Part shown: positions 3,024-19,875 of the stretch, in pieces | Layout of the letters: each line of letters begins with the position of its first letter | How positions within the stretch are numbered: the first letter of the stretch is position 1 | Virus record (IMG/VR): IMGVR_UViG_3300008267_000250 | Span: 52,255 to 72,254 of that record | Strand: one strand, 5' to 3' | Source of the DNA: an uncultured virus (IMG/VR IMGVR_UViG_3300008267_000250) | Lineage: Duplodnaviria; Heunggongvirae; Uroviricota; Caudoviricetes | Length of the DNA: 20,000 nucleotides | The notes under the pieces: generated by a model | The model's database searches: none | Told to the model about the DNA's origin: nothing | What the model saw: the letters and a program-made list of their open reading frames with translations, nothing else | Position numbers and translations under genes: made by a program

Positions 3024-3215
3024 ATGTTTCTTTTAACACCCTTTCTTACCTTTTTATTTATATTCTCTATCGTGGTTTTAGTTACTTTTGGAGTAAATTT
3101 AACTATTTCAATGATGTCAAACCCACCTAAACCATATGAGTTCAAAAGATATGAAACAACAACTTATATGATGTTGTTGAGTTATGTTGTAACTTATATT
3201 ATTTATTTATTTTAA
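3024..3215 (+). CDS. Small two-TM membrane protein
   Basis: 63 aa, two hydrophobic stretches separated by NPPKPYEFKRYE. Confidence 0.65.
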   Translation: MFLLTPFLTFLFIFSIVVLVTFGVNLTISMMSNPPKPYEFKRYETTTYMMLLSYVVTYIIYLF

Positions 3216-3217
3216 TT

Positions 3218-3661
3218 ATGATATTCAGTCAATTTATAACAAAAACCGATAAGTATTTAAAAACCGTTAGAGTATTAAAAAATTACGTTTCTTTTGACAT
3301 GATCTTTCCTTCGGGATGGGTCATGTTAAAGAAATCACCAGAGAATGTTGAAATCTTACAAACAGAAACAAAAGATGGTATTGTGACTTCATTTGTTTGT
3401 CAAAATGATTCGGAAATAATCCAAACCCTTGAATCTACAATGGATTTGGTCATTAAAACGAATATTGAAAGGGAAGAAAAAGAAAAATTATTTAAGTTGA
3501 AAGTAAAAGAGTTACAAAACATTTTTGAAAAAGAAAAACTTTCAGACTTAAAGGAATTAAAAATTGCAATTGAAGTGGATGAACCAAATTTAGAGGAATA
3601 TTCAAAATTAGTAGAAAATGGAACAGAAACCAAATCTGAAGGAGTTGAACAGGGAGCTTGA
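3218..3661 (+). CDS. Hypothetical protein
   Basis: 147 aa ORF tightly packed in an operon; C-terminal coiled coil. Confidence 0.7.
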   Translation: MIFSQFITKTDKYLKTVRVLKNYVSFDMIFPSGWVMLKKSPENVEILQTETKDGIVTSFVCQNDSEIIQTLESTMDLVIKTNIEREEKEKLFKLKVKELQNIFEKEKLSDLKELKIAIEVDEPNLEEYSKLVENGTETKSEGVEQGA

Positions 3662-3836
3662 ACGGTTTGAACTTGAATCAAAAAAGTACGAAAAACAAAA
3701 CGAAGCCTACAAAAACTCTATTTCAACCGAATTAAAAAAAATTAACAAAGAAATACTATTTAATTCAAAACAAACCGAAATTGAAACTGAATTGACATTA
3801 TGGGAAAGATTGAAGAAAGTTTTGAGGATGAATTAG
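3618..3836 (+). CDS. Hypothetical protein
   Basis: 72 aa coiled coil ending TLWERLKKVL; overlaps both neighbours. Confidence 0.6.
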   Translation: MEQKPNLKELNRELERFELESKKYEKQNEAYKNSISTELKKINKEILFNSKQTEIETELTLWERLKKVLRMN

Positions 3837-4643: not shown

Positions 4644-5639
4644 ATGAAGGACTATTATACTATTTTAGGTGTTACTGAAACAGCAACACAAGATGAAATC
4701 AAAAAAACATATAGAAAATTAAGTAAACAATATCATCCAGATGTAAACCCTGACGGAGAAGAAAAATTCAAAGAAATTACTGAAGCGTATGAGAACATAG
4801 GTGAGGAATCAAAAAGGAATGAATATGATATTAGAAGAAAAAATCCATTCCAAGGTATGGGTGGTTCACCTTTTGATATTCATAGTATGTTTGAACAAAT
4901 GATGAACGGTGGTGTACCAAAACAAAAAAGAGCACCAGACAAAGTGATAAACATAACAATTAACCCATTGGAATCATACTTTGGTACTAAAAAAGAACTG
5001 ACATTAAAAAATTTAAGTAAATGTACACCATGTCAAGGAACCGGTGGAACTAAAAAAATATGTGAAACATGTCAAGGTCAGGGAATGGTTGTTCAAGTAA
5101 TGGGTACTGGTTTATTCGCCCATAGAATCCAAACAACGTGCCCAACATGTCAAGGGTCCGGTAGTCAGATATTAAATGCTTGTACAAGTTGTTTTGGTAA
5201 TGGAAGAAGGGTTGAGGATGAAAAATTAATGGTTAACATCCCACCAAATGTGGATAATGGTGATTTTTTAAGGTTATCACAAAAAGGTGATTTTGATTCT
5301 AGTACAAAATTAAGGGGGGACTTGATTCTAAAAGTAAATTTAATAAATGATGATAAGTTTGAAAAAAGTGGATTTGATCTGATATATAATTTAAGGATTC
5401 ACCCACTCAATTTAATTTTAGACGACGAACTAATTGTTGAACACCCAGACGGTAATCTATCCATAAAAATACCAGAAAGTATAACAACTAACAAACCTTT
5501 GAGAATTGTCGGAAAGGGTTATAAAACTGATCAAGGTAGCGGAAACTTTTATATCAAAGTAATTGTTGAAAAACAAGAAAATCTTGATTCAAAATTAAAA
5601 GAGGAACTTAAACAAGTTCTAAAACTGGTTATTAATTAA
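4644..5639 (+). CDS. dnaJ: DnaJ/Hsp40 co-chaperone (class A)
   Basis: J-domain DYYTILGV...YHPD; four CxxCxGxG repeats (CTPCQGTG, CETCQGQG, CPTCQGSG, CTSCFGNG); C-terminal domain (GDLILKV, GFDL). Confidence 0.95.
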   Translation: MKDYYTILGVTETATQDEIKKTYRKLSKQYHPDVNPDGEEKFKEITEAYENIGEESKRNEYDIRRKNPFQGMGGSPFDIHSMFEQMMNGGVPKQKRAPDKVINITINPLESYFGTKKELTLKNLSKCTPCQGTGGTKKICETCQGQGMVVQVMGTGLFAHRIQTTCPTCQGSGSQILNACTSCFGNGRRVEDEKLMVNIPPNVDNGDFLRLSQKGDFDSSTKLRGDLILKVNLINDDKFEKSGFDLIYNLRIHPLNLILDDELIVEHPDGNLSIKIPESITTNKPLRIVGKGYKTDQGSGNFYIKVIVEKQENLDSKLKEELKQVLKLVIN

Positions 5640-13448: not shown

Positions 13449-13485
13449 TGTTGGTTTTTTTTGTTTTGTGGAAGTATTTATCTAT

Positions 13486-14274
13486 ATGATTATAGATGTG
13501 TGGAGACCCAGAATAAAAAAAGTTAATGGTAAGGGTATCGCCGTGTCGTATGAAATGGTTGATATTGGTGTTTTTATTAAAGAAAAAAGAAAAGGGTGGA
13601 TTGTTAGGTATTATTGTGATTCGTGTAAAAATGACAAAATAATGACAACCACCACACATGTTTTATTAAACCCAAAAGTTGTTTATAATACCTTAGAAAA
13701 ACAAACCTGCAGATCATGTAGGTCTAAAATTTCAGAATATGAAATAAAAAAAAGTCACATACCTTTTGATGTTATAGAAAAATCCGTAATAGAGTCAAAT
13801 TACACACTACTTTCAACTGAGGATGAATATATGTTATGGGGTCAAAAATCACAATTTAAACATAAAGTTATTTGTGAAAATAACCATAACTTAACAATAA
13901 CTTGGAATAATTGGAGTAAAGGTAAGCGTTGCAGACAATGTTATGAACAAAAAAAATTTGAAAATGCGGTTAAGTATAAGGAAGGTTGGGAAAGGTACTC
14001 GTATTTGGTTTATTATTATACTGAAAAAAGTTATAAAAAATATAAAAACAAAATCAACCCAACAAATATTGAAAGAAGTAAAGAGTACCACCTAGACCAT
14101 AAATATTCAATTAGTGAAGGGTTTGGTAATGGTATTTTACCAAACATAATTGGTCAATTTTATAATTTAGAAATTTTAAAAAGTCACGATAATTTAAAAA
14201 AAAATAAACAATGTTCAATAACATTAGATGAATTATTTGAATATGAAAAAACTTATAAAAGAATCGGGGATTAG
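13486..14274 (+). CDS. Free-standing HNH homing endonuclease with Zn-binding repeats
   Basis: CDSC/CRSC, CENNH...KGKRCRQC; C-terminal YHLDHKYSI...NLEIL...DNLKKN HNH motif. Confidence 0.8.
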   Translation: MIIDVWRPRIKKVNGKGIAVSYEMVDIGVFIKEKRKGWIVRYYCDSCKNDKIMTTTTHVLLNPKVVYNTLEKQTCRSCRSKISEYEIKKSHIPFDVIEKSVIESNYTLLSTEDEYMLWGQKSQFKHKVICENNHNLTITWNNWSKGKRCRQCYEQKKFENAVKYKEGWERYSYLVYYYTEKSYKKYKNKINPTNIERSKEYHLDHKYSISEGFGNGILPNIIGQFYNLEILKSHDNLKKNKQCSITLDELFEYEKTYKRIGD

Positions 14275-16354: not shown

Positions 16355-17275
16355 AATCGGAAAAGTCCGAAACGTTCTTTGAAAATAGGAAATTAGACCG
16401 AAAGGTTAACATAATTAAAAAAAGTGAATTAACACCTCCCTTTCTTTAAGTATGGAATTTAATAGGTCATTGGGCCGTGTATGGTCCATTAAAATAAACC
16501 ATGAAAGTGGGATAAAGTGAATCAGAAGTGTAACTGATTTGCGGCTTGGGAGACCGAGCTTGAGTACACAAGCGGGATACCGTTTAACCTTTAGTACCGA
16601 GGGCAACGCTGTAGGGAAAGTGGTTAGATGATTTGGCGATGTGGGTCGTCTGATTGAGGTGGGAACACCAATAGGAATAACCCGTAGGAATAGTGCAAAA
16701 CTTAAAGTTATCCAACTTTAATATTGCGTGTTCCAGTATTATAGGATACTTAAAACCGAAAGGTATGTTTGTGTACAGGTGGTGCTGTTACAAACCCTAA
16801 TGATTCCTTACCAAAGGAATTGTTTTGAAGTAGTCTAGAAATATGGAAACTGGGAAGTTTCAGAGAGTAGTTAAGTATTGATTCGTTCAAAAGATGGGTC
16901 AGCTTGGTTGACGGACCACTACTTTCACAATCCACGACACACAACATTTTTTACAATTGGATGTAAAATCATAAACGTAATAATGGAAAAGTGTCCGTCA
17001 GGTTTGGATGAAAGGTGATTACATAGTAATGAGTTGTTCATTGCACACAAGGATCCCAAGTCTGAGTGTATTTATCCAAAAAACCTTTAATCCCGCAAGG
17101 ATGAACTGGGGCGGCAGTCTCGGAAAGAGTTAAGTAAGATGAGAGTAATTCAAACCTCAAGGAGTGGTATACCTAAAAAACCATCACTGAGAAATACCAT
17201 TCAAAAGATGGTGGATACGAAGGGAAACAATAATCCTTCAAAAGGTTCTCACAAACAGCTGTAATCTCAGGCTTA
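16355..17275 (+). ncRNA. Giant structured non-coding RNA, GOLLD-like (boundaries approximate)
   Basis: About 920 nt with no + strand ORF in the track, visibly richer in G/C than its flanks, many hairpins with GNRA loops and G-U pairs that work on the + strand, own promoter and terminator, tRNA nearby. The GOLLD assignment is inferred from size and context. Confidence 0.7.
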
Positions 17276-18607: not shown

Positions 18608-18903
18608 AAAAAATTATTATAACAGAAAAACAATTGGAAGATATGGTTAAACACATCAAAGAAAATCATGATGATGGTTCATATATGGCAAAACAACAAT
18701 TATTTACAATCGCAACATTGGCTTACAAAATGTGGGAAATGATGGAGGATGGTGAACAACTTGAGGATTGGATGGAAACCAAAATCGCTCAATCCGAACA
18801 ATCAATCCTTGCCGTTGTAAAATCCTTTATGTATGATGAAGCTGAAGATAGGATGAAAAAAAATGGTGATATCGGATTGGATGGATTAATCATTGGAATG
18901 TAA
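18604..18903 (+). CDS. Hypothetical protein, probable head protein
   Basis: MKKIIITEKQL...HIKE leader; SYMAKQQL...LEDWMETKI. Confidence 0.65.
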   Translation: MKKIIITEKQLEDMVKHIKENHDDGSYMAKQQLFTIATLAYKMWEMMEDGEQLEDWMETKIAQSEQSILAVVKSFMYDEAEDRMKKNGDIGLDGLIIGM

Positions 18904-18923
18904 TTTAAAATTAATATAATTTG

Positions 18924-18951
18924 TCCTCCGGTTATTGACTGGGGGATTTTT
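18924..18951 (+). terminator. Intrinsic terminator
   Basis: TCCTCCGGT-tattg-ACTGGGGGA followed by TTTTT. Confidence 0.75.
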
Positions 18952-18964
18952 ATTTTGTATCTTT

Positions 18965-19156
18965 ATGAAAAAAAGGATGTACGTTATAGTTAAACATATT
19001 AAAACGGAAAATAGAAAAAGAGTTCCAGTTATCATTTTGAATGGTCACAATGAAATTTGGGAATTTGACACTTTTGAACAGGCCGATGATATGAAAAAGA
19101 TTTTTGAATTGAATTCAGATTCCGGTCACAAATATGAGGTTAAAAAACTTCATTAA
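18965..19156 (+). CDS. Hypothetical protein
   Basis: ATG 18965 (MKKRMYVIVKH...); the longer start overlaps the terminator. Confidence 0.65.
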   Translation: MKKRMYVIVKHIKTENRKRVPVIILNGHNEIWEFDTFEQADDMKKIFELNSDSGHKYEVKKLH

Positions 19157-19161
19157 AATAT

Positions 19162-19440
19162 GGTCCCGTAGCTCAACTGAATAGAGCAATTGCCTCAAAT
19201 AGGGGGCGTTTAATTGGAAACAGTTAAATGGAACTCATCAAATTCGGGGAAGCCTGTAAAATGGTAATCCCGAGCCAAGATCTCAGAAATGGGATAAGGT
19301 GTAGAGACTTGACGGTGAGTACCTAAGTCCAAATGGATAAGGTAATGAGAAAGTCCAGACCACAAACAATTAAATTGGTAGTGAAAACTATAGTGGTACG
19401 TCTAAGCAATAGGTTGATGGTTTGAATCCATCCGGGATCA
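19162..19440 (+). tRNA. tRNA-Arg(UCU), intron-containing (exons 19162-19195 and 19401-19440)
   Basis: Joined exons fold as a cloverleaf: acceptor GGTCCCG/CGGGATC+A, D-stem GCTC/GAGC, anticodon ATTGC-CT-TCT-AA-GCAAT, T-arm GATGG-TTTGAAT-CCATC; A20 Arg identity base; CCA not encoded. Confidence 0.92.
19196..19400 (+). mobile_element. Group I self-splicing intron (205 nt, ORF-less, IC3-like)
   Basis: 5' exon ends in U paired to G in P1 (GCCU|C with GGGGC); P2 with GAAA loop; P3 ACTCATC/GGTGAGT; P4 TTCGGG/CCCGAG; P7 GACTT/AAGTC; P8 TACCT/AGGTA; P9 region ACCAC/GTGGT; terminal omega-G at 19400. Confidence 0.92.
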
Positions 19441-19456
19441 CAAAAACAAAACTAAT

Positions 19457-19564
19457 ATGGAGGATATTCACCAACAAATCCACGAAGAATTTGTAAATAG
19501 CGAAGATTTTTTAATTTTTTTAAAAGAACTTGACATATATTCAGAAAAATATGTATCTTTGTAA
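19457..19564 (+). CDS. Possible 35 aa peptide
   Basis: MEDIHQQIHEEFVNSEDFLIFLKELDIYSEKYVSL; A-rich leader; overlaps a promoter. Confidence 0.35.
   Translation: MEDIHQQIHEEFVNSEDFLIFLKELDIYSEKYVSL
19529..19561 (+). promoter_or_regulatory. Bacteroidota-type -33/-7 promoter
   Basis: cTTG, 21 nt spacer, TATCTTTG; 14 nt before ATG 19576. Confidence 0.7.
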
Positions 19565-19575
19565 AAAGAAATCAT

Positions 19576-19875
19576 ATGAACAAGGAACTTATCGCACTAT
19601 TTTTTGCCATGGAACATGAAGCCGACGAATTGATTGATGTATTTGTTAAAGAACAACTCCTTGATTTTTATATTAACGGATGTGAGTTAAGGTTACGAAT
19701 GGAAAAAAGATTCAATGAATTTAATGAGTTTCATAAAGAAACCGGAATCACTTTGGGTAATTTGTTACTTAACAAATACAATTTGGCAAAACAACTTCAC
19801 GTATTAAAAATCGCGTTGGGAAAGTTGGGTGTACAGGGAATTGATGAAGACCAATATATAATGTTAAATAACTAA
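19576..19875 (+). CDS. Hypothetical protein
   Basis: 99 aa helical ORF directly after a Bacteroidota-type promoter. Confidence 0.7.
   Translation: MNKELIALFFAMEHEADELIDVFVKEQLLDFYINGCELRLRMEKRFNEFNEFHKETGITLGNLLLNKYNLAKQLHVLKIALGKLGVQGIDEDQYIMLNN

What the first reader, a model, noticed from the sequence alone, without database searches (positions are those of the whole stretch)
19162..19440. Phage tRNA-Arg(UCU) interrupted after U33 by a minimal 205-nt group I ribozyme
Seen: removing 19196-19400 gives a clean cloverleaf. The intron has the P1 U-G splice pair, a possible P10 (3' exon TCTA with TAGG 19200-19203), the P3/P4/P7/P8 core and omega-G, and no ORF. Known: classic bacterial tRNA group I introns are in Leu(UAA), fMet(CAU), Ile(CAU) and Arg(CCU); the compact Azoarcus intron is of similar size. 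Inference: Arg(UCU) at position 33/34 in a phage is an uncommon host/site combination that standard tRNA scans would miss. AGA is visibly the main Arg codon in this window, so splicing could gate supply of this tRNA or hide the anticodon loop from host anticodon nucleases until needed.
Basis: partly seen in the sequence, partly recalled or inferred. Interest (0 to 1): 0.75.

Follow-up and report, generated by a model that had tools for sequence, protein, structure and literature searches.

The report
Self-splicing intron in phage tRNA-Arg
A freshwater phage's only detected tRNA gene, for the arginine codon AGA, is split in its anticodon loop by a small, intact-looking self-splicing (group I) intron that closely related phages lack at the same spot, so it is most likely a mobile passenger of a known kind and not a new regulatory device.

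Summary
ARAGORN finds no tRNA in the window without the intron option. With it, it calls tRNA-Arg(UCU) at 19162-19441 with a 205-nt intron at 19196-19400. Rfam's group I model hits 19186-19381 at 66.2 bits, E 4.5e-15.

I drew a P1-P9 fold by hand. On 43 related phage introns it keeps 87.5% of cells paired, against 32-43% when partners are slid, and 42 of 65 pairs show changes on both sides. The window departs from the family at 1 of 88 highly conserved columns.

Sixteen viral contigs carry Arg(UCU) split after U33. They give 7 distinct mature tRNAs, and every cloverleaf pair is kept in all of them.

Of 62 metagenome contigs with a near-identical 3' exon, 55 have the gene uninterrupted, reading exactly as the predicted ligated exons. 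Seven carry the intron, and the flanks are homologous. That pattern fits a mobile intron.

The kind is known. U33/U34 is the classical tRNA-fMet site, tRNA-Arg(UCU) introns are in print for bacteria, and introns in phage tRNAs were reported in 2019. This scan has also noted group I introns in phage tRNA genes on other DNA. Splicing itself is not shown, and the gating or anti-nuclease idea has no support.

The parts
19162..19195 (+). 5' exon of tRNA-Arg(UCU): acceptor 5' strand, D arm, 5' strand of the anticodon stem, then C32 and U33. U33 (T19195) is the base before the 5' splice site.
   Evidence: ARAGORN with the intron option. Uninterrupted alleles in 55 metagenome contigs read straight across this junction.
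19196..19400 (+). 205-nt ORF-less group I intron of the tRNA-intron type, ending in G19400 (omega-G).
   Evidence: Rfam RF00028 at 66.2 bits, E 4.5e-15. Structure and covariation. The window departs at 1 of 88 conserved columns.
19191..19208 (+). P1 hairpin: exon bases 19191-19195 plus intron C19196 pair with the internal guide 19203-19208. T19195.G19204 is the splice-site wobble; the loop is 19197-19202.
   Evidence: Read directly from the sequence. The wobble column is U.G in 40 of 43 aligned introns. The guide changes with the exon: pair column 15/36 is C-G in 14 rows and A-U in 3.
19209..19228 (+). P2, 8 base pairs with a GAAA tetraloop.
   Evidence: All 8 pairs show changes on both sides across 43 sequences (helix 2).
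19233..19320 (+). P3 (19233-19239 with 19314-19320). It encloses P4 (19243-19249 / 19268-19274), P5 (19252-19254 / 19263-19265), P6 and P6a (19275-19299, GAAA loop) and the 5' strand of P7.
   Evidence: P3 has 7 of 7 pairs with double changes and 88% of cells paired; P4 with P5 has 95% paired; P6 has 95%; P6a has 87%.
19304..19356 (+). P7 pseudoknot (19304 and 19306-19310 with 19351-19356; A19305 bulged). By analogy it holds the guanosine-binding site. P8 and P8a lie between its strands at 19321-19343.
   Evidence: P7 is 100% paired. Five pairs never vary, and T19310-A19351 swaps to A-U in 24 rows against U-A in 19 (helix 8). Assigning G19306-C19355 as the G-binding pair rests on my recall of the Tetrahymena P7 layout, not on a call.
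19360..19396 (+). P9 three-way junction: P9 (19360-19363 / 19393-19396), P9a (19367-19369 / 19375-19377), P9b (19378-19382 / 19387-19391, GAAA loop).
   Evidence: helices 11, 12 and 14: 98-100% of cells paired, and 6 of 11 pairs have double changes. The third P9a pair (helix 13) has letters in only 6 rows, 4 of them paired.
19401..19440 (+). 3' exon: U34 C35 U36 anticodon, the rest of the loop, the 3' anticodon stem, variable loop, T arm, acceptor 3' strand and discriminator A19440. CCA is not encoded. Bases 19401-19404 can pair with 19200-19203 (P10).
   Evidence: ARAGORN. The exact 40-mer is found in 5 sister viral contigs, the same contigs that carry the intron.

Best explanation
Bases 19162-19440 encode a working tRNA-Arg(UCU). 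An AT-rich freshwater phage (31.8% G+C; AGA is 67% of its Arg codons) carries it to read AGA.

The gene is interrupted between U33 and U34 by a 205-nt ORF-less group I intron. The intron belongs to the same family as the bacterial and plastid anticodon-loop tRNA introns.

Inferred mechanism, none of it shown here:
1. [quoted passage not shown]
2. A free guanosine bound in P7 attacks after U33.
3. G19400 then takes the same pocket while the 3' exon pairs with 19200-19203 (P10).
4. The exons are ligated into a 7-nt CUUCUAA loop.

The intron is best read as a selfish, horizontally moving passenger that is phenotypically near-neutral because it splices. It is present in a minority of otherwise near-identical tRNA-Arg(UCU) genes at homologous phage loci. 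Its relatives sit in many other phage tRNA genes.
For: - Intron identity: Rfam E 4.5e-15. ARAGORN with the intron option gives a clean cloverleaf. The minimum-energy fold of the precursor independently reproduces the tRNA arms, P1, P2, P3, P4, P5, P6a, P8 and P9 (z -3.87).
- Fold under selection: on 43 aligned introns, 87.5% of 2647 cells pair, against 32-43% for slid partners. 42 of 65 pairs have changes on both sides, and 0 of 500 shuffles reach the covariation score.
- Ribozyme intact: the window differs from the consensus at 1 of 88 columns that are at least 90% conserved, and that base lies in the P1 loop.
- tRNA under selection: 16 loci give 9 distinct precursors and 7 distinct mature tRNAs. 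All 21 cloverleaf pairs are kept in 7 of 7. Three of 5 anticodon-stem pairs show two pair types.
- Junction confirmed by nature: 55 of 62 metagenome contigs matching the 3'-exon pattern have the gene uninterrupted, reading GCCT directly followed by TCTAAG. Seven carry an intron of 201-210 nt at that point, one identical to the window's.
- Same locus with and without the intron: flanks of intron-bearing loci match intron-less loci. The window's own lineage (L184) matches intron-less loci at 79% over about 310 nt downstream and 81% over 81 nt upstream. L169 matches at 95% over 314 nt.
- Movement between tRNAs: the closest public relative (79% over 174 nt) sits in tRNA-Leu(UAA) after U34 of a 735-kb phage. 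Of 125 loci oriented on a core motif, ARAGORN mapped 69 to an intron-split tRNA; 63 of these could be placed with U before and G at the end. They split as Leu(UAA) after U34 32, Arg(UCU) after U34 5, Arg(UCU) after U33 4, Met(CAU) after U33 3, Leu(UAA) after U33 3, Asn(GUU) 3, 9 ARAGORN 'Tyr(ata)' calls that are probably Leu, and 4 others. On the tree, host labels need 12 changes where 8 is the minimum.
- Demand for the tRNA: AGA is 409 of 606 Arg codons, and this is the only tRNA on the 72-kb record.
Against: - No direct evidence of splicing. One RNA library holds contigs over 19444-19700 and over a relative's intron 3' end, but no contig joins 19195 to 19401.
- No homing endonuclease lies in the intron or beside it in the window, so the means of movement is unknown.
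- The tree's deep branches are unresolved (22 of 40 open), so neither the direction of jumps nor a single origin of the Arg/U33 introns is shown.
- The presence/absence pattern could reflect loss as well as gain.
- The alignment came from sequences fetched with a conserved core motif. This inflates the invariance of that motif (P7 3' strand), though not of the covarying helices.
Confidence: 0.85

Rival explanations
1. One reading: the intron is kept because it is useful. Splicing would gate when tRNA-Arg(UCU) becomes available, or the precursor would hide the anticodon loop from host anticodon nucleases.
For: - The precursor is identical in six viral contigs including the window, so the intron is stably carried in this lineage.
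- It is the only tRNA on the 72-kb record, and AGA is heavily used.
- A precursor without an anticodon loop cannot be a substrate for loop-cutting nucleases. This is inference.
Against: - 55 of 62 near-identical tRNA-Arg(UCU) genes lack the intron, some at homologous loci.
- The same intron family is scattered over Leu, Met, Asn, Ala and other tRNAs, which is the pattern of a selfish element.
- The spliced tRNA, the only form that works in translation, is exposed again.
- No sensor or regulatory element was seen in the intron. Its peripheral loops are ordinary GAAA tetraloops.
Confidence: 0.06
2. The intron persists and spreads together with free-standing HNH endonucleases that cut intron-less tRNA-Arg genes (collaborative homing). 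The intron's main effect would be at the DNA level, breaking up the nuclease's target.
For: - HNH-domain ORFs lie directly beside the intron-bearing tRNA-Arg in two other contexts.
- L130 has a 163-aa ORF (PF14279, E 2.5e-16) on one side and a weak 197-aa match on the other.
- L136 has a 113-aa ORF (PF01844, E 1.1e-4) immediately upstream. The near-identical locus L132 has no such ORF there.
- Earlier scan notes describe similar pairs (e1-6060132, e1-5340344).
Against: - In the window and its five sister contigs, no nuclease domain was found in the flanking ORFs at 18935-19156 and 19576-19875.
- The upstream ORF is unrelated to the L136 HNH.
- Only 12 flanking ORFs from 5 contexts were scanned.
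- Target specificity is untested.
Confidence: 0.2
3. The intron is splicing-dead and the gene is a pseudogene.
For: - Splicing has not been observed.
- The P8 receptor-like motif differs from its relatives: 5 of the 9 Arg/U33 rows, the window among them, read ATAAGG where 31 of the 43 rows read ATGG.
Against: - All 65 drawn pairs are intact.
- Only 1 of 88 conserved columns deviates.
- Among the paired positions where the window differs from its nearest relative, the window still forms a standard pair at every one.
- The exons keep every cloverleaf pair, with compensatory changes.
Confidence: 0.05

Closest known systems
[quoted passage not shown]
   Same: A compact 205-nt ORF-less intron in a tRNA anticodon loop, lacking the large peripheral domains of the Tetrahymena intron. 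P1 is formed by the 5' exon end and an internal guide. It self-splices efficiently in vitro.
   Different: The host is a bacterium, the tRNA is Ile(CAU) and the site is after loop position 5 (after U36), not position 2. I did not align the two sequences, because no Azoarcus sequence was fetched. The similarity of core motifs is my recall.
tRNA-fMet(CAU) group I intron of cyanobacteria (class 'fMet.2Ug' of Williams 2020)
   Same: The insertion point is the same, between U33 and base 34. Phage Met(CAU) introns at this site (L059, L064, L117) share the window's P1 layout: U.G wobble, two guide Gs next to it, then T or G. In L059 and L117 the first intron base is C, as in the window.
   Different: The tRNA differs, and the guide differs by one base that matches the exon (A-U in Met and Leu-after-U33, C-G in Arg, column pair 15/36). 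Some cyanobacterial fMet introns carry a homing endonuclease (reference list of PMC3984707); this one carries none.
[quoted passage not shown]
   Same: The closest public sequence is 79% identical over 174 nt of the core, and the intron in LR756501 is the same length, 205 nt.
   Different: It is inserted one base further 3' (after U34) in another tRNA, with guide GAGTGC where the window has GGGGCG.
Putative group I introns in tRNA-Arg-TCT of Beggiatoaceae (PMC4853749, passages, citing MacGregor 2013, which I have not seen)
   Same: The same isoacceptor is interrupted by a group I intron and is therefore missing from standard annotation.
   Different: The host is a bacterial chromosome, and the insertion position is not given in the passages I read. 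Two exact-pattern scans for the window's lineage found 0 matches in 185,579 species genomes.
'Enigmatic' introns in tRNAs of Lak megaphages (Devoto 2019, PMC6784885, passages)
   Same: Introns in phage tRNA genes. The authors state that, to their knowledge, these had not been reported before.
   Different: These are gut phages of Prevotella, with other tRNAs (Tyr, Thr). The passages I read do not classify the introns as group I.

Membership tests
Group I intron (Rfam RF00028) | Match to the covariance model above the curated score | tested here: met
   66.2 bits against a gathering score of 50, E 4.5e-15, full model 1-253. The same hit appears in the whole record.
Group I intron (Rfam RF00028) | Conserved core helices P3-P8 with the P3/P7 pseudoknot, supported by covariation | tested here: met
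   Structure. In one search, P3 has 7 of 7 pairs with double changes. P4 with P5 is 95% paired. P7 is 100% paired, with one pair swapping A-U and U-A (24 against 19 rows). The whole structure is 87.5% paired against 32-43% when slid.
Group I intron (Rfam RF00028) | U before the 5' splice site in a U.G wobble within P1, and G as the last intron base | tested here: met
   T19195.G19204 and G19400. U.G is found in 40 of 43 relatives. No other offset in the loop keeps U and G and still yields a tRNA with an Arg anticodon (one search lists offsets -5, -4 and 0).
Group I intron (Rfam RF00028) | Guanosine-dependent self-splicing | not testable with these tools
   Needs an in vitro assay. RNA contigs gave no spliced joint.
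Bacterial-type tRNA anticodon-loop group I introns (subgroup IC3 per Williams 2020) | Sits in the anticodon loop of a tRNA, and its removal restores a 7-nt loop | tested here: met
   Uninterrupted alleles give the same loop.
Bacterial-type tRNA anticodon-loop group I introns (subgroup IC3 per Williams 2020) | Sequence kinship with an accepted member (a tRNA-Leu(UAA) intron) | tested here: met
   79% identity over 174 nt to the intron of tRNA-Leu(UAA) in LR756501. It aligns throughout with 18 phage Leu(UAA) introns. No cyanobacterial or plastid reference was aligned.
Bacterial-type tRNA anticodon-loop group I introns (subgroup IC3 per Williams 2020) | Formal assignment to subgroup IC3 by the structural criteria of the intron databases | not tested
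   No classifier or reference set is at hand. The helix inventory (P2 present, no P5abc, three-way P9) fits my recall of IC3.
Mobile group I intron with its own homing endonuclease | An endonuclease ORF inside the intron | tested here: not met
   No sense-strand ORF lies in 19196-19400. The only frame of at least 50 codons is antisense (19210-19365) and was not followed up.
Mobile intron (any mechanism) | Presence/absence polymorphism at the same site of homologous loci | tested here: met
   7 loci with the intron and 55 without, among 62 contigs. Flanks are homologous between the two sets.

The most novel reading that the evidence does not exclude
Phage tRNA genes, not bacterial chromosomes, may be the main home of this lineage of small ORF-less group I introns.

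The introns appear to move between anticodon loops (Leu, Arg, Met, Asn, Ala, suppressor tRNAs) by retargeting their short internal guide. One example is the single A-U to C-G swap that separates Met or Leu introns after U33 from Arg introns after U33. Another is the Arg-after-U34 intron (L121) that still carries a Leu-type guide.

This would make freshwater and gut phage tRNA arrays a natural experiment in RNA-guided intron transposition, probably by reverse splicing. A 2014 review said no phage intron had yet been seen in a tRNA gene.
Probability: 0.45. Interest if true: 0.55.

Novelty: new member of a known kind. Interest (0 to 1): 0.4.

Why it matters
- Annotation: the phage's AGA-reading tRNA, the only tRNA on this 72-kb record, is invisible to default tRNA finders. 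Inventories of phage tRNAs and codon-supply arguments built on them will therefore be incomplete.
- Biology: the locus offers a clean natural set. Intron-bearing and intron-less alleles sit at homologous loci. There are two insertion sites in the same tRNA (after U33 and after U34). Some copies have neighbouring HNH genes and some do not. Together these could be used to test how ORF-less introns move.
- Literature context: the locus adds to evidence that introns in phage tRNA genes are common. A 2014 review (PMC3984707) said none had been seen in phage tRNA genes, and a 2019 paper (PMC6784885) called the ones it found enigmatic.
- What it does not show: a new mechanism or a regulatory role.

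Tried and rejected
- RNA evidence: one search found 20 runs holding the stretch, mostly lake or freshwater metagenomes, and one RNA library. I laid three RNA runs and one DNA run. No contig joined 19195 to 19401. The RNA contigs covered only 19444-19700 and pieces of relatives' introns and tRNAs. This says nothing for or against splicing.
- Near-identical phage genomes: a megablast of the whole window against 50,697 phage records found nothing.
- Intron-less allele with the window's exact 3' exon: only 5 viral contigs matched, all the intron-bearing sister contigs. Intron-less alleles appeared only when the pattern was loosened to include the nearest relative's 3' exon.
- Bacterial copies: two exact patterns (P1 plus 3' exon; core motif plus 3' exon) gave 0 of 185,579 species genomes. 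Exact patterns miss diverged copies, so this does not show absence of Arg(UCU)/U33 introns in bacteria.
- Homing endonuclease by the window's tRNA: 21 window ORFs were scanned against Pfam and PHROGs. None near the tRNA has a nuclease domain. A weak PHROG HNH match (E 2.5e-4) lies 5 kb away at 13468-14274.
- Rfam scan of the 12 six-kb loci listed the intron in only 3, although five hold an intron identical to the window's. I take this as a filter effect of the larger search, not as absence.
- Tree: it could not resolve whether the Arg/U33 introns have one origin. There are two starred clades plus L153, and one origin is not ruled out.
- Papers: five of my eight searches sought a description of group I introns in phage tRNA genes and found none beyond Devoto 2019. 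Searches dealt with tRNA-Arg introns and search 27 with GOLLD. Table 1 and Fig. 3 of Williams 2020 are images and its supplements are closed, so whether an 'Arg.2Ug' class is already listed remains open.

Full report
**Where the window lies.** The window is the last 20 kb of a 72,254-base IMG/VR virus record. The record is classed as linear and estimated about 25% complete. It has 31.8% G+C. Runs that hold the stretch are mostly lake and freshwater metagenomes. No near-identical phage is in the 50,697-record phage collection.

**The observation.**
- ARAGORN without the intron option finds no tRNA in the window or in the whole record.
- With the option, it calls tRNA-Arg(tct) at 19162-19441 with a 205-nt intron, 'tgcct-Intron-tctaa'.
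- The exons joined by script give a normal 75-base cloverleaf with a 7-nt loop.
- Rfam's Intron_gpI model matches 19186-19381 over its whole length at 66.2 bits, E 4.5e-15.
- The junction is unambiguous.

**Anatomy.** I drew the full fold by hand, guided by the Rfam alignment:

| Helix | Coordinates | Note |
|---|---|---|
| P1 | 19191-19196 / 19203-19208 | splice wobble T19195.G19204 |
| P2 | 19209-19228 | GAAA loop |
| P3 | 19233-19239 / 19314-19320 | |
| P4 | 19243-19249 / 19268-19274 | |
| P5 | 19252-19254 / 19263-19265 | |
| P6, P6a | 19275-19299 | GAAA loop |
| P7 | 19304, 19306-19310 / 19351-19356 | A19305 bulged |
| P8, P8a | 19321-19343 | |
| P9, P9a, P9b | 19360-19396 | three-way junction, GAAA loop |
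| tail | TAC, then G19400 | omega-G |

All 65 pairs are standard pairs in the window. The minimum-energy fold of the 280-nt precursor finds the tRNA acceptor, D and T arms and most of these helices unaided. Its energy is -82.9 kcal/mol against a mean of -63.9 for shuffles (z -3.87, 0 of 200 as good).

**Relatives.**
- BLAST against public phages gave 9 records. The best is a 735-kb uncultured phage (LR756501), 79% identical over 174 nt. There the intron, also 205 nt, sits in tRNA-Leu(UAA) after U34.
- Agrobacterium phage Atu_ph07 has a 278-nt relative in its tRNA-Leu(UAA).
- Weaker hits lie between split capsid genes of marine podophages and next to helicase genes of crAss-like phages.
- Of 125 oriented loci (the 122 stretches plus the window, L002 and L006), 69 gave an intron-split tRNA call over the motif.
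- After I required U before and G at the end of the intron, 63 were placed and 6 were left out as ambiguous:

| tRNA and site | Loci |
|---|---|
| Leu(UAA) after U34 | 32 |
| ARAGORN 'Tyr(ata)', which I read as Leu(UAA) with a mis-set 5' border | 9 |
| Arg(UCU) after U34 | 5 |
| Arg(UCU) after U33 (window included) | 4 |
| Met(CAU) after U33 | 3 |
| Leu(UAA) after U33 | 3 |
| Asn(GUU) | 3 |
| Others | 4 |

**The Arg(UCU)/U33 class.**
- A pattern tying the window's P1 to the 3' exon found 12 viral contigs. A second pattern, tying the core motif to the 3' exon, found 15.
- Both patterns found 0 matches in one genome each of 185,579 bacterial and archaeal species.
- The 15 contigs plus the window are all tRNA-Arg(tct) with an intron of 197-209 nt after U33. 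They give 9 distinct precursors and 7 distinct mature tRNAs.
- The window's precursor is identical in five other contigs.
- Those five sister contigs also carry the GOLLD RNA. Four of them extend further and show three more tRNAs about 2.7 kb downstream of the tRNA-Arg, beyond where the window's record ends.

**Selection on the ribozyme.** I aligned 43 distinct introns of at most 220 nt, chosen from 60 distinct sequences. The 17 left out were 11 longer introns, one odd call (L020), one duplicate of the window (L145) and four further 'Tyr(ata)' rows. The named structure gives these results:
- 87.5% of cells are paired, against 39, 32, 41, 43, 35 and 41% when partners are slid by 1-3 columns.
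- 42 of 65 pairs have changes on both sides.
- The covariation score is 0.430, against 0.06-0.11 for slid partners, and 0 of 500 shuffles reach it.
- P1 scores low (54%) because the rows come from different tRNAs and insertion sites.
- Within P1 the wobble is U.G in 40 of 43 rows. The pair two steps in is C-G in 14 rows and A-U in 3, so the guide tracks the exon.

The structure was drawn from the window, which favours it over the slid versions. The size of the gap and the double changes go well beyond that bias. The window departs from the other 42 at 1 of 88 columns that are at least 90% conserved: T19200, in the P1 loop, where it adds a fourth possible P10 pair. Among the paired positions where the window differs from its nearest relative (92% identical), the window still forms a standard pair at every one.

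**Selection on the tRNA.**
- In the 7 distinct mature tRNAs, all 21 cloverleaf pairs are standard pairs in 7 of 7.
- Three of 5 anticodon-stem pairs and 4 of 5 T-stem pairs show two or more pair types.
- The window's tRNA has GA in the D loop and TTTGAAT in the T loop, where the other six have TTCGAAT in the T loop and five of the six have GG in the D loop (L153 aligns differently there). This may be a matched change of the G19-C56 tertiary pair. The D-loop alignment is not firm, so this is an inference.

**Intron-less alleles.**
- A degenerate pattern for the 3' exon found 62 metagenome contigs.
- 55 hold an uninterrupted tRNA-Arg(UCU) whose loop reads exactly as the predicted ligated exons.
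- 7 hold an intron of 201-210 nt at the same point, one identical to the window's.
- The flanks of intron-bearing loci match those of intron-less loci. The window's lineage (L184) matches at 79% over about 310 nt downstream and 81% over 81 nt upstream. L169 matches at 95% over 314 nt.
- So the same locus exists with and without the intron in related phages. This fixes the exon borders independently and is the usual mark of a mobile intron, whether by gain or by loss.

**How it moves.**
- The intron has no sense-strand ORF, and no nuclease domain was found in the ORFs flanking it in the window.
- In two other contexts, HNH-domain ORFs lie directly beside the intron-bearing gene (L130 and L136). 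The near-identical locus L132 lacks the ORF.
- The tree of intron cores is poorly resolved at depth (22 of 40 inner branches open). It still places the window in a starred four-member Arg/U33 clade and mixes host tRNAs elsewhere: Arg/U34 with Leu, Arg/U34 with Ala, Met with Leu. Host labels need 12 changes where 8 is the minimum.
- One Arg/U34 intron (L121) keeps a Leu-type guide.
- Together these fit repeated jumps between anticodon loops with later adjustment of the guide. The mechanism could be reverse splicing or nuclease-aided recombination. This is inferred.

AGA is indeed the main Arg codon: 409 of 606 in the record, and 107 of 156 in the window. That explains why the phage carries this tRNA. 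Nothing supports a gating or shielding role for the intron:
- Most near-identical genes lack it.
- The family is spread over many tRNAs.
- The loops are ordinary tetraloops.
- The mature tRNA is exposed after splicing.

**What is known.**
- Williams 2020 (bioRxiv 10.1101/2020.01.27.920355, whole text read; table, figures and supplements not visible) lists four classical bacterial classes: Leu.3Ug, Arg.5Ug, fMet.2Ug and Ile2.5Ug, all IC3. It extends them to 21 classes, so the U33/34 site is classical for fMet.
- Hausner 2014 (PMC3984707, passages) states that all phage introns seen to that date were in protein-coding genes.
- Devoto 2019 (PMC6784885, passages) reports 'enigmatic' tRNA introns in Lak megaphages as the first in phage tRNAs.
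- The Azoarcus intron is 205 nt and lies in the anticodon loop (PMC13168695, passages).
- Earlier notes of this scan record group I introns in phage tRNA genes on other DNA, including tRNA-Arg(UCU) at 34/35. This is therefore not the scan's first sighting.

**Verdict.** This is a genuine, intact-looking group I intron of the tRNA type in a functional-looking phage tRNA-Arg(UCU), polymorphic among related phages. It is a new member of a known kind. Splicing is inferred, not shown. Interest is moderate.

Noticed in passing
window 16863-17273 (+): A full-length match to GOLLD RNA (RF02032, 322 bits, model 1-416) lies 1.9 kb upstream of the split tRNA-Arg. The same RNA is in the five sister contigs. 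As I recall, GOLLD is known to lie near tRNAs in phages.
   Followed up: partly
window 4644-5639 (+): A phage-encoded full-length DnaJ with J domain, CXXCXGXG zinc centre and C-terminal domain (E 1e-23 to 1e-26). A second ORF with a weak DnaJ-centre match lies downstream of the tRNA in sister contig L138:4008-4964.
   Followed up: no
L138 and L140 5874-6168; L134 and L135 49-343: Sister contigs show three more tRNA genes about 2.7 kb downstream of the tRNA-Arg, beyond the end of the window's record. The phage therefore has a tRNA cluster that the window does not reach.
   Followed up: no
L121:263-479 (-): This tRNA-Arg(UCU) is split after U34 by an intron whose guide is the Leu(UAA) type (GAGTGC). 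It pairs only 3 bases with the Arg exon and nests among Leu introns in the tree. It looks like a recent jump from tRNA-Leu.
   Followed up: partly
L022, L041, L047, L055, L081, L086, L097, L114, L123: ARAGORN calls these nine as tRNA-Tyr(ata) with an intron. The P1 pairing and the anticodon stem fit tRNA-Leu(UAA) better, with the 5' splice site two bases upstream. This is a caution for automated intron mapping.
   Followed up: partly
L130:2361-2852 (-) and 3215-3808 (-); L136:3258-3599 (-): Free-standing HNH endonuclease ORFs directly flank the intron-bearing tRNA-Arg(UCU) in other phages. L132, which is near-identical to L136 at this locus, lacks the ORF.
   Followed up: partly
window 19175-19183 and 19416-19422: The window's tRNA has GA in the D loop and TTTGAAT in the T loop, where the six other distinct tRNAs have TTCGAAT and five of them have GG (L153 aligns differently there). 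This may be a compensating change of the G19-C56 tertiary pair to A-U.
   Followed up: no
window 18923-18947 (+): A terminator-like hairpin (11 pairs, then a T run) lies just after a promoter-like site at 18893-18920. It overlaps the TTG start of the 73-codon ORF upstream of the tRNA, so that ORF's real start, or its reality, is doubtful.
   Followed up: no
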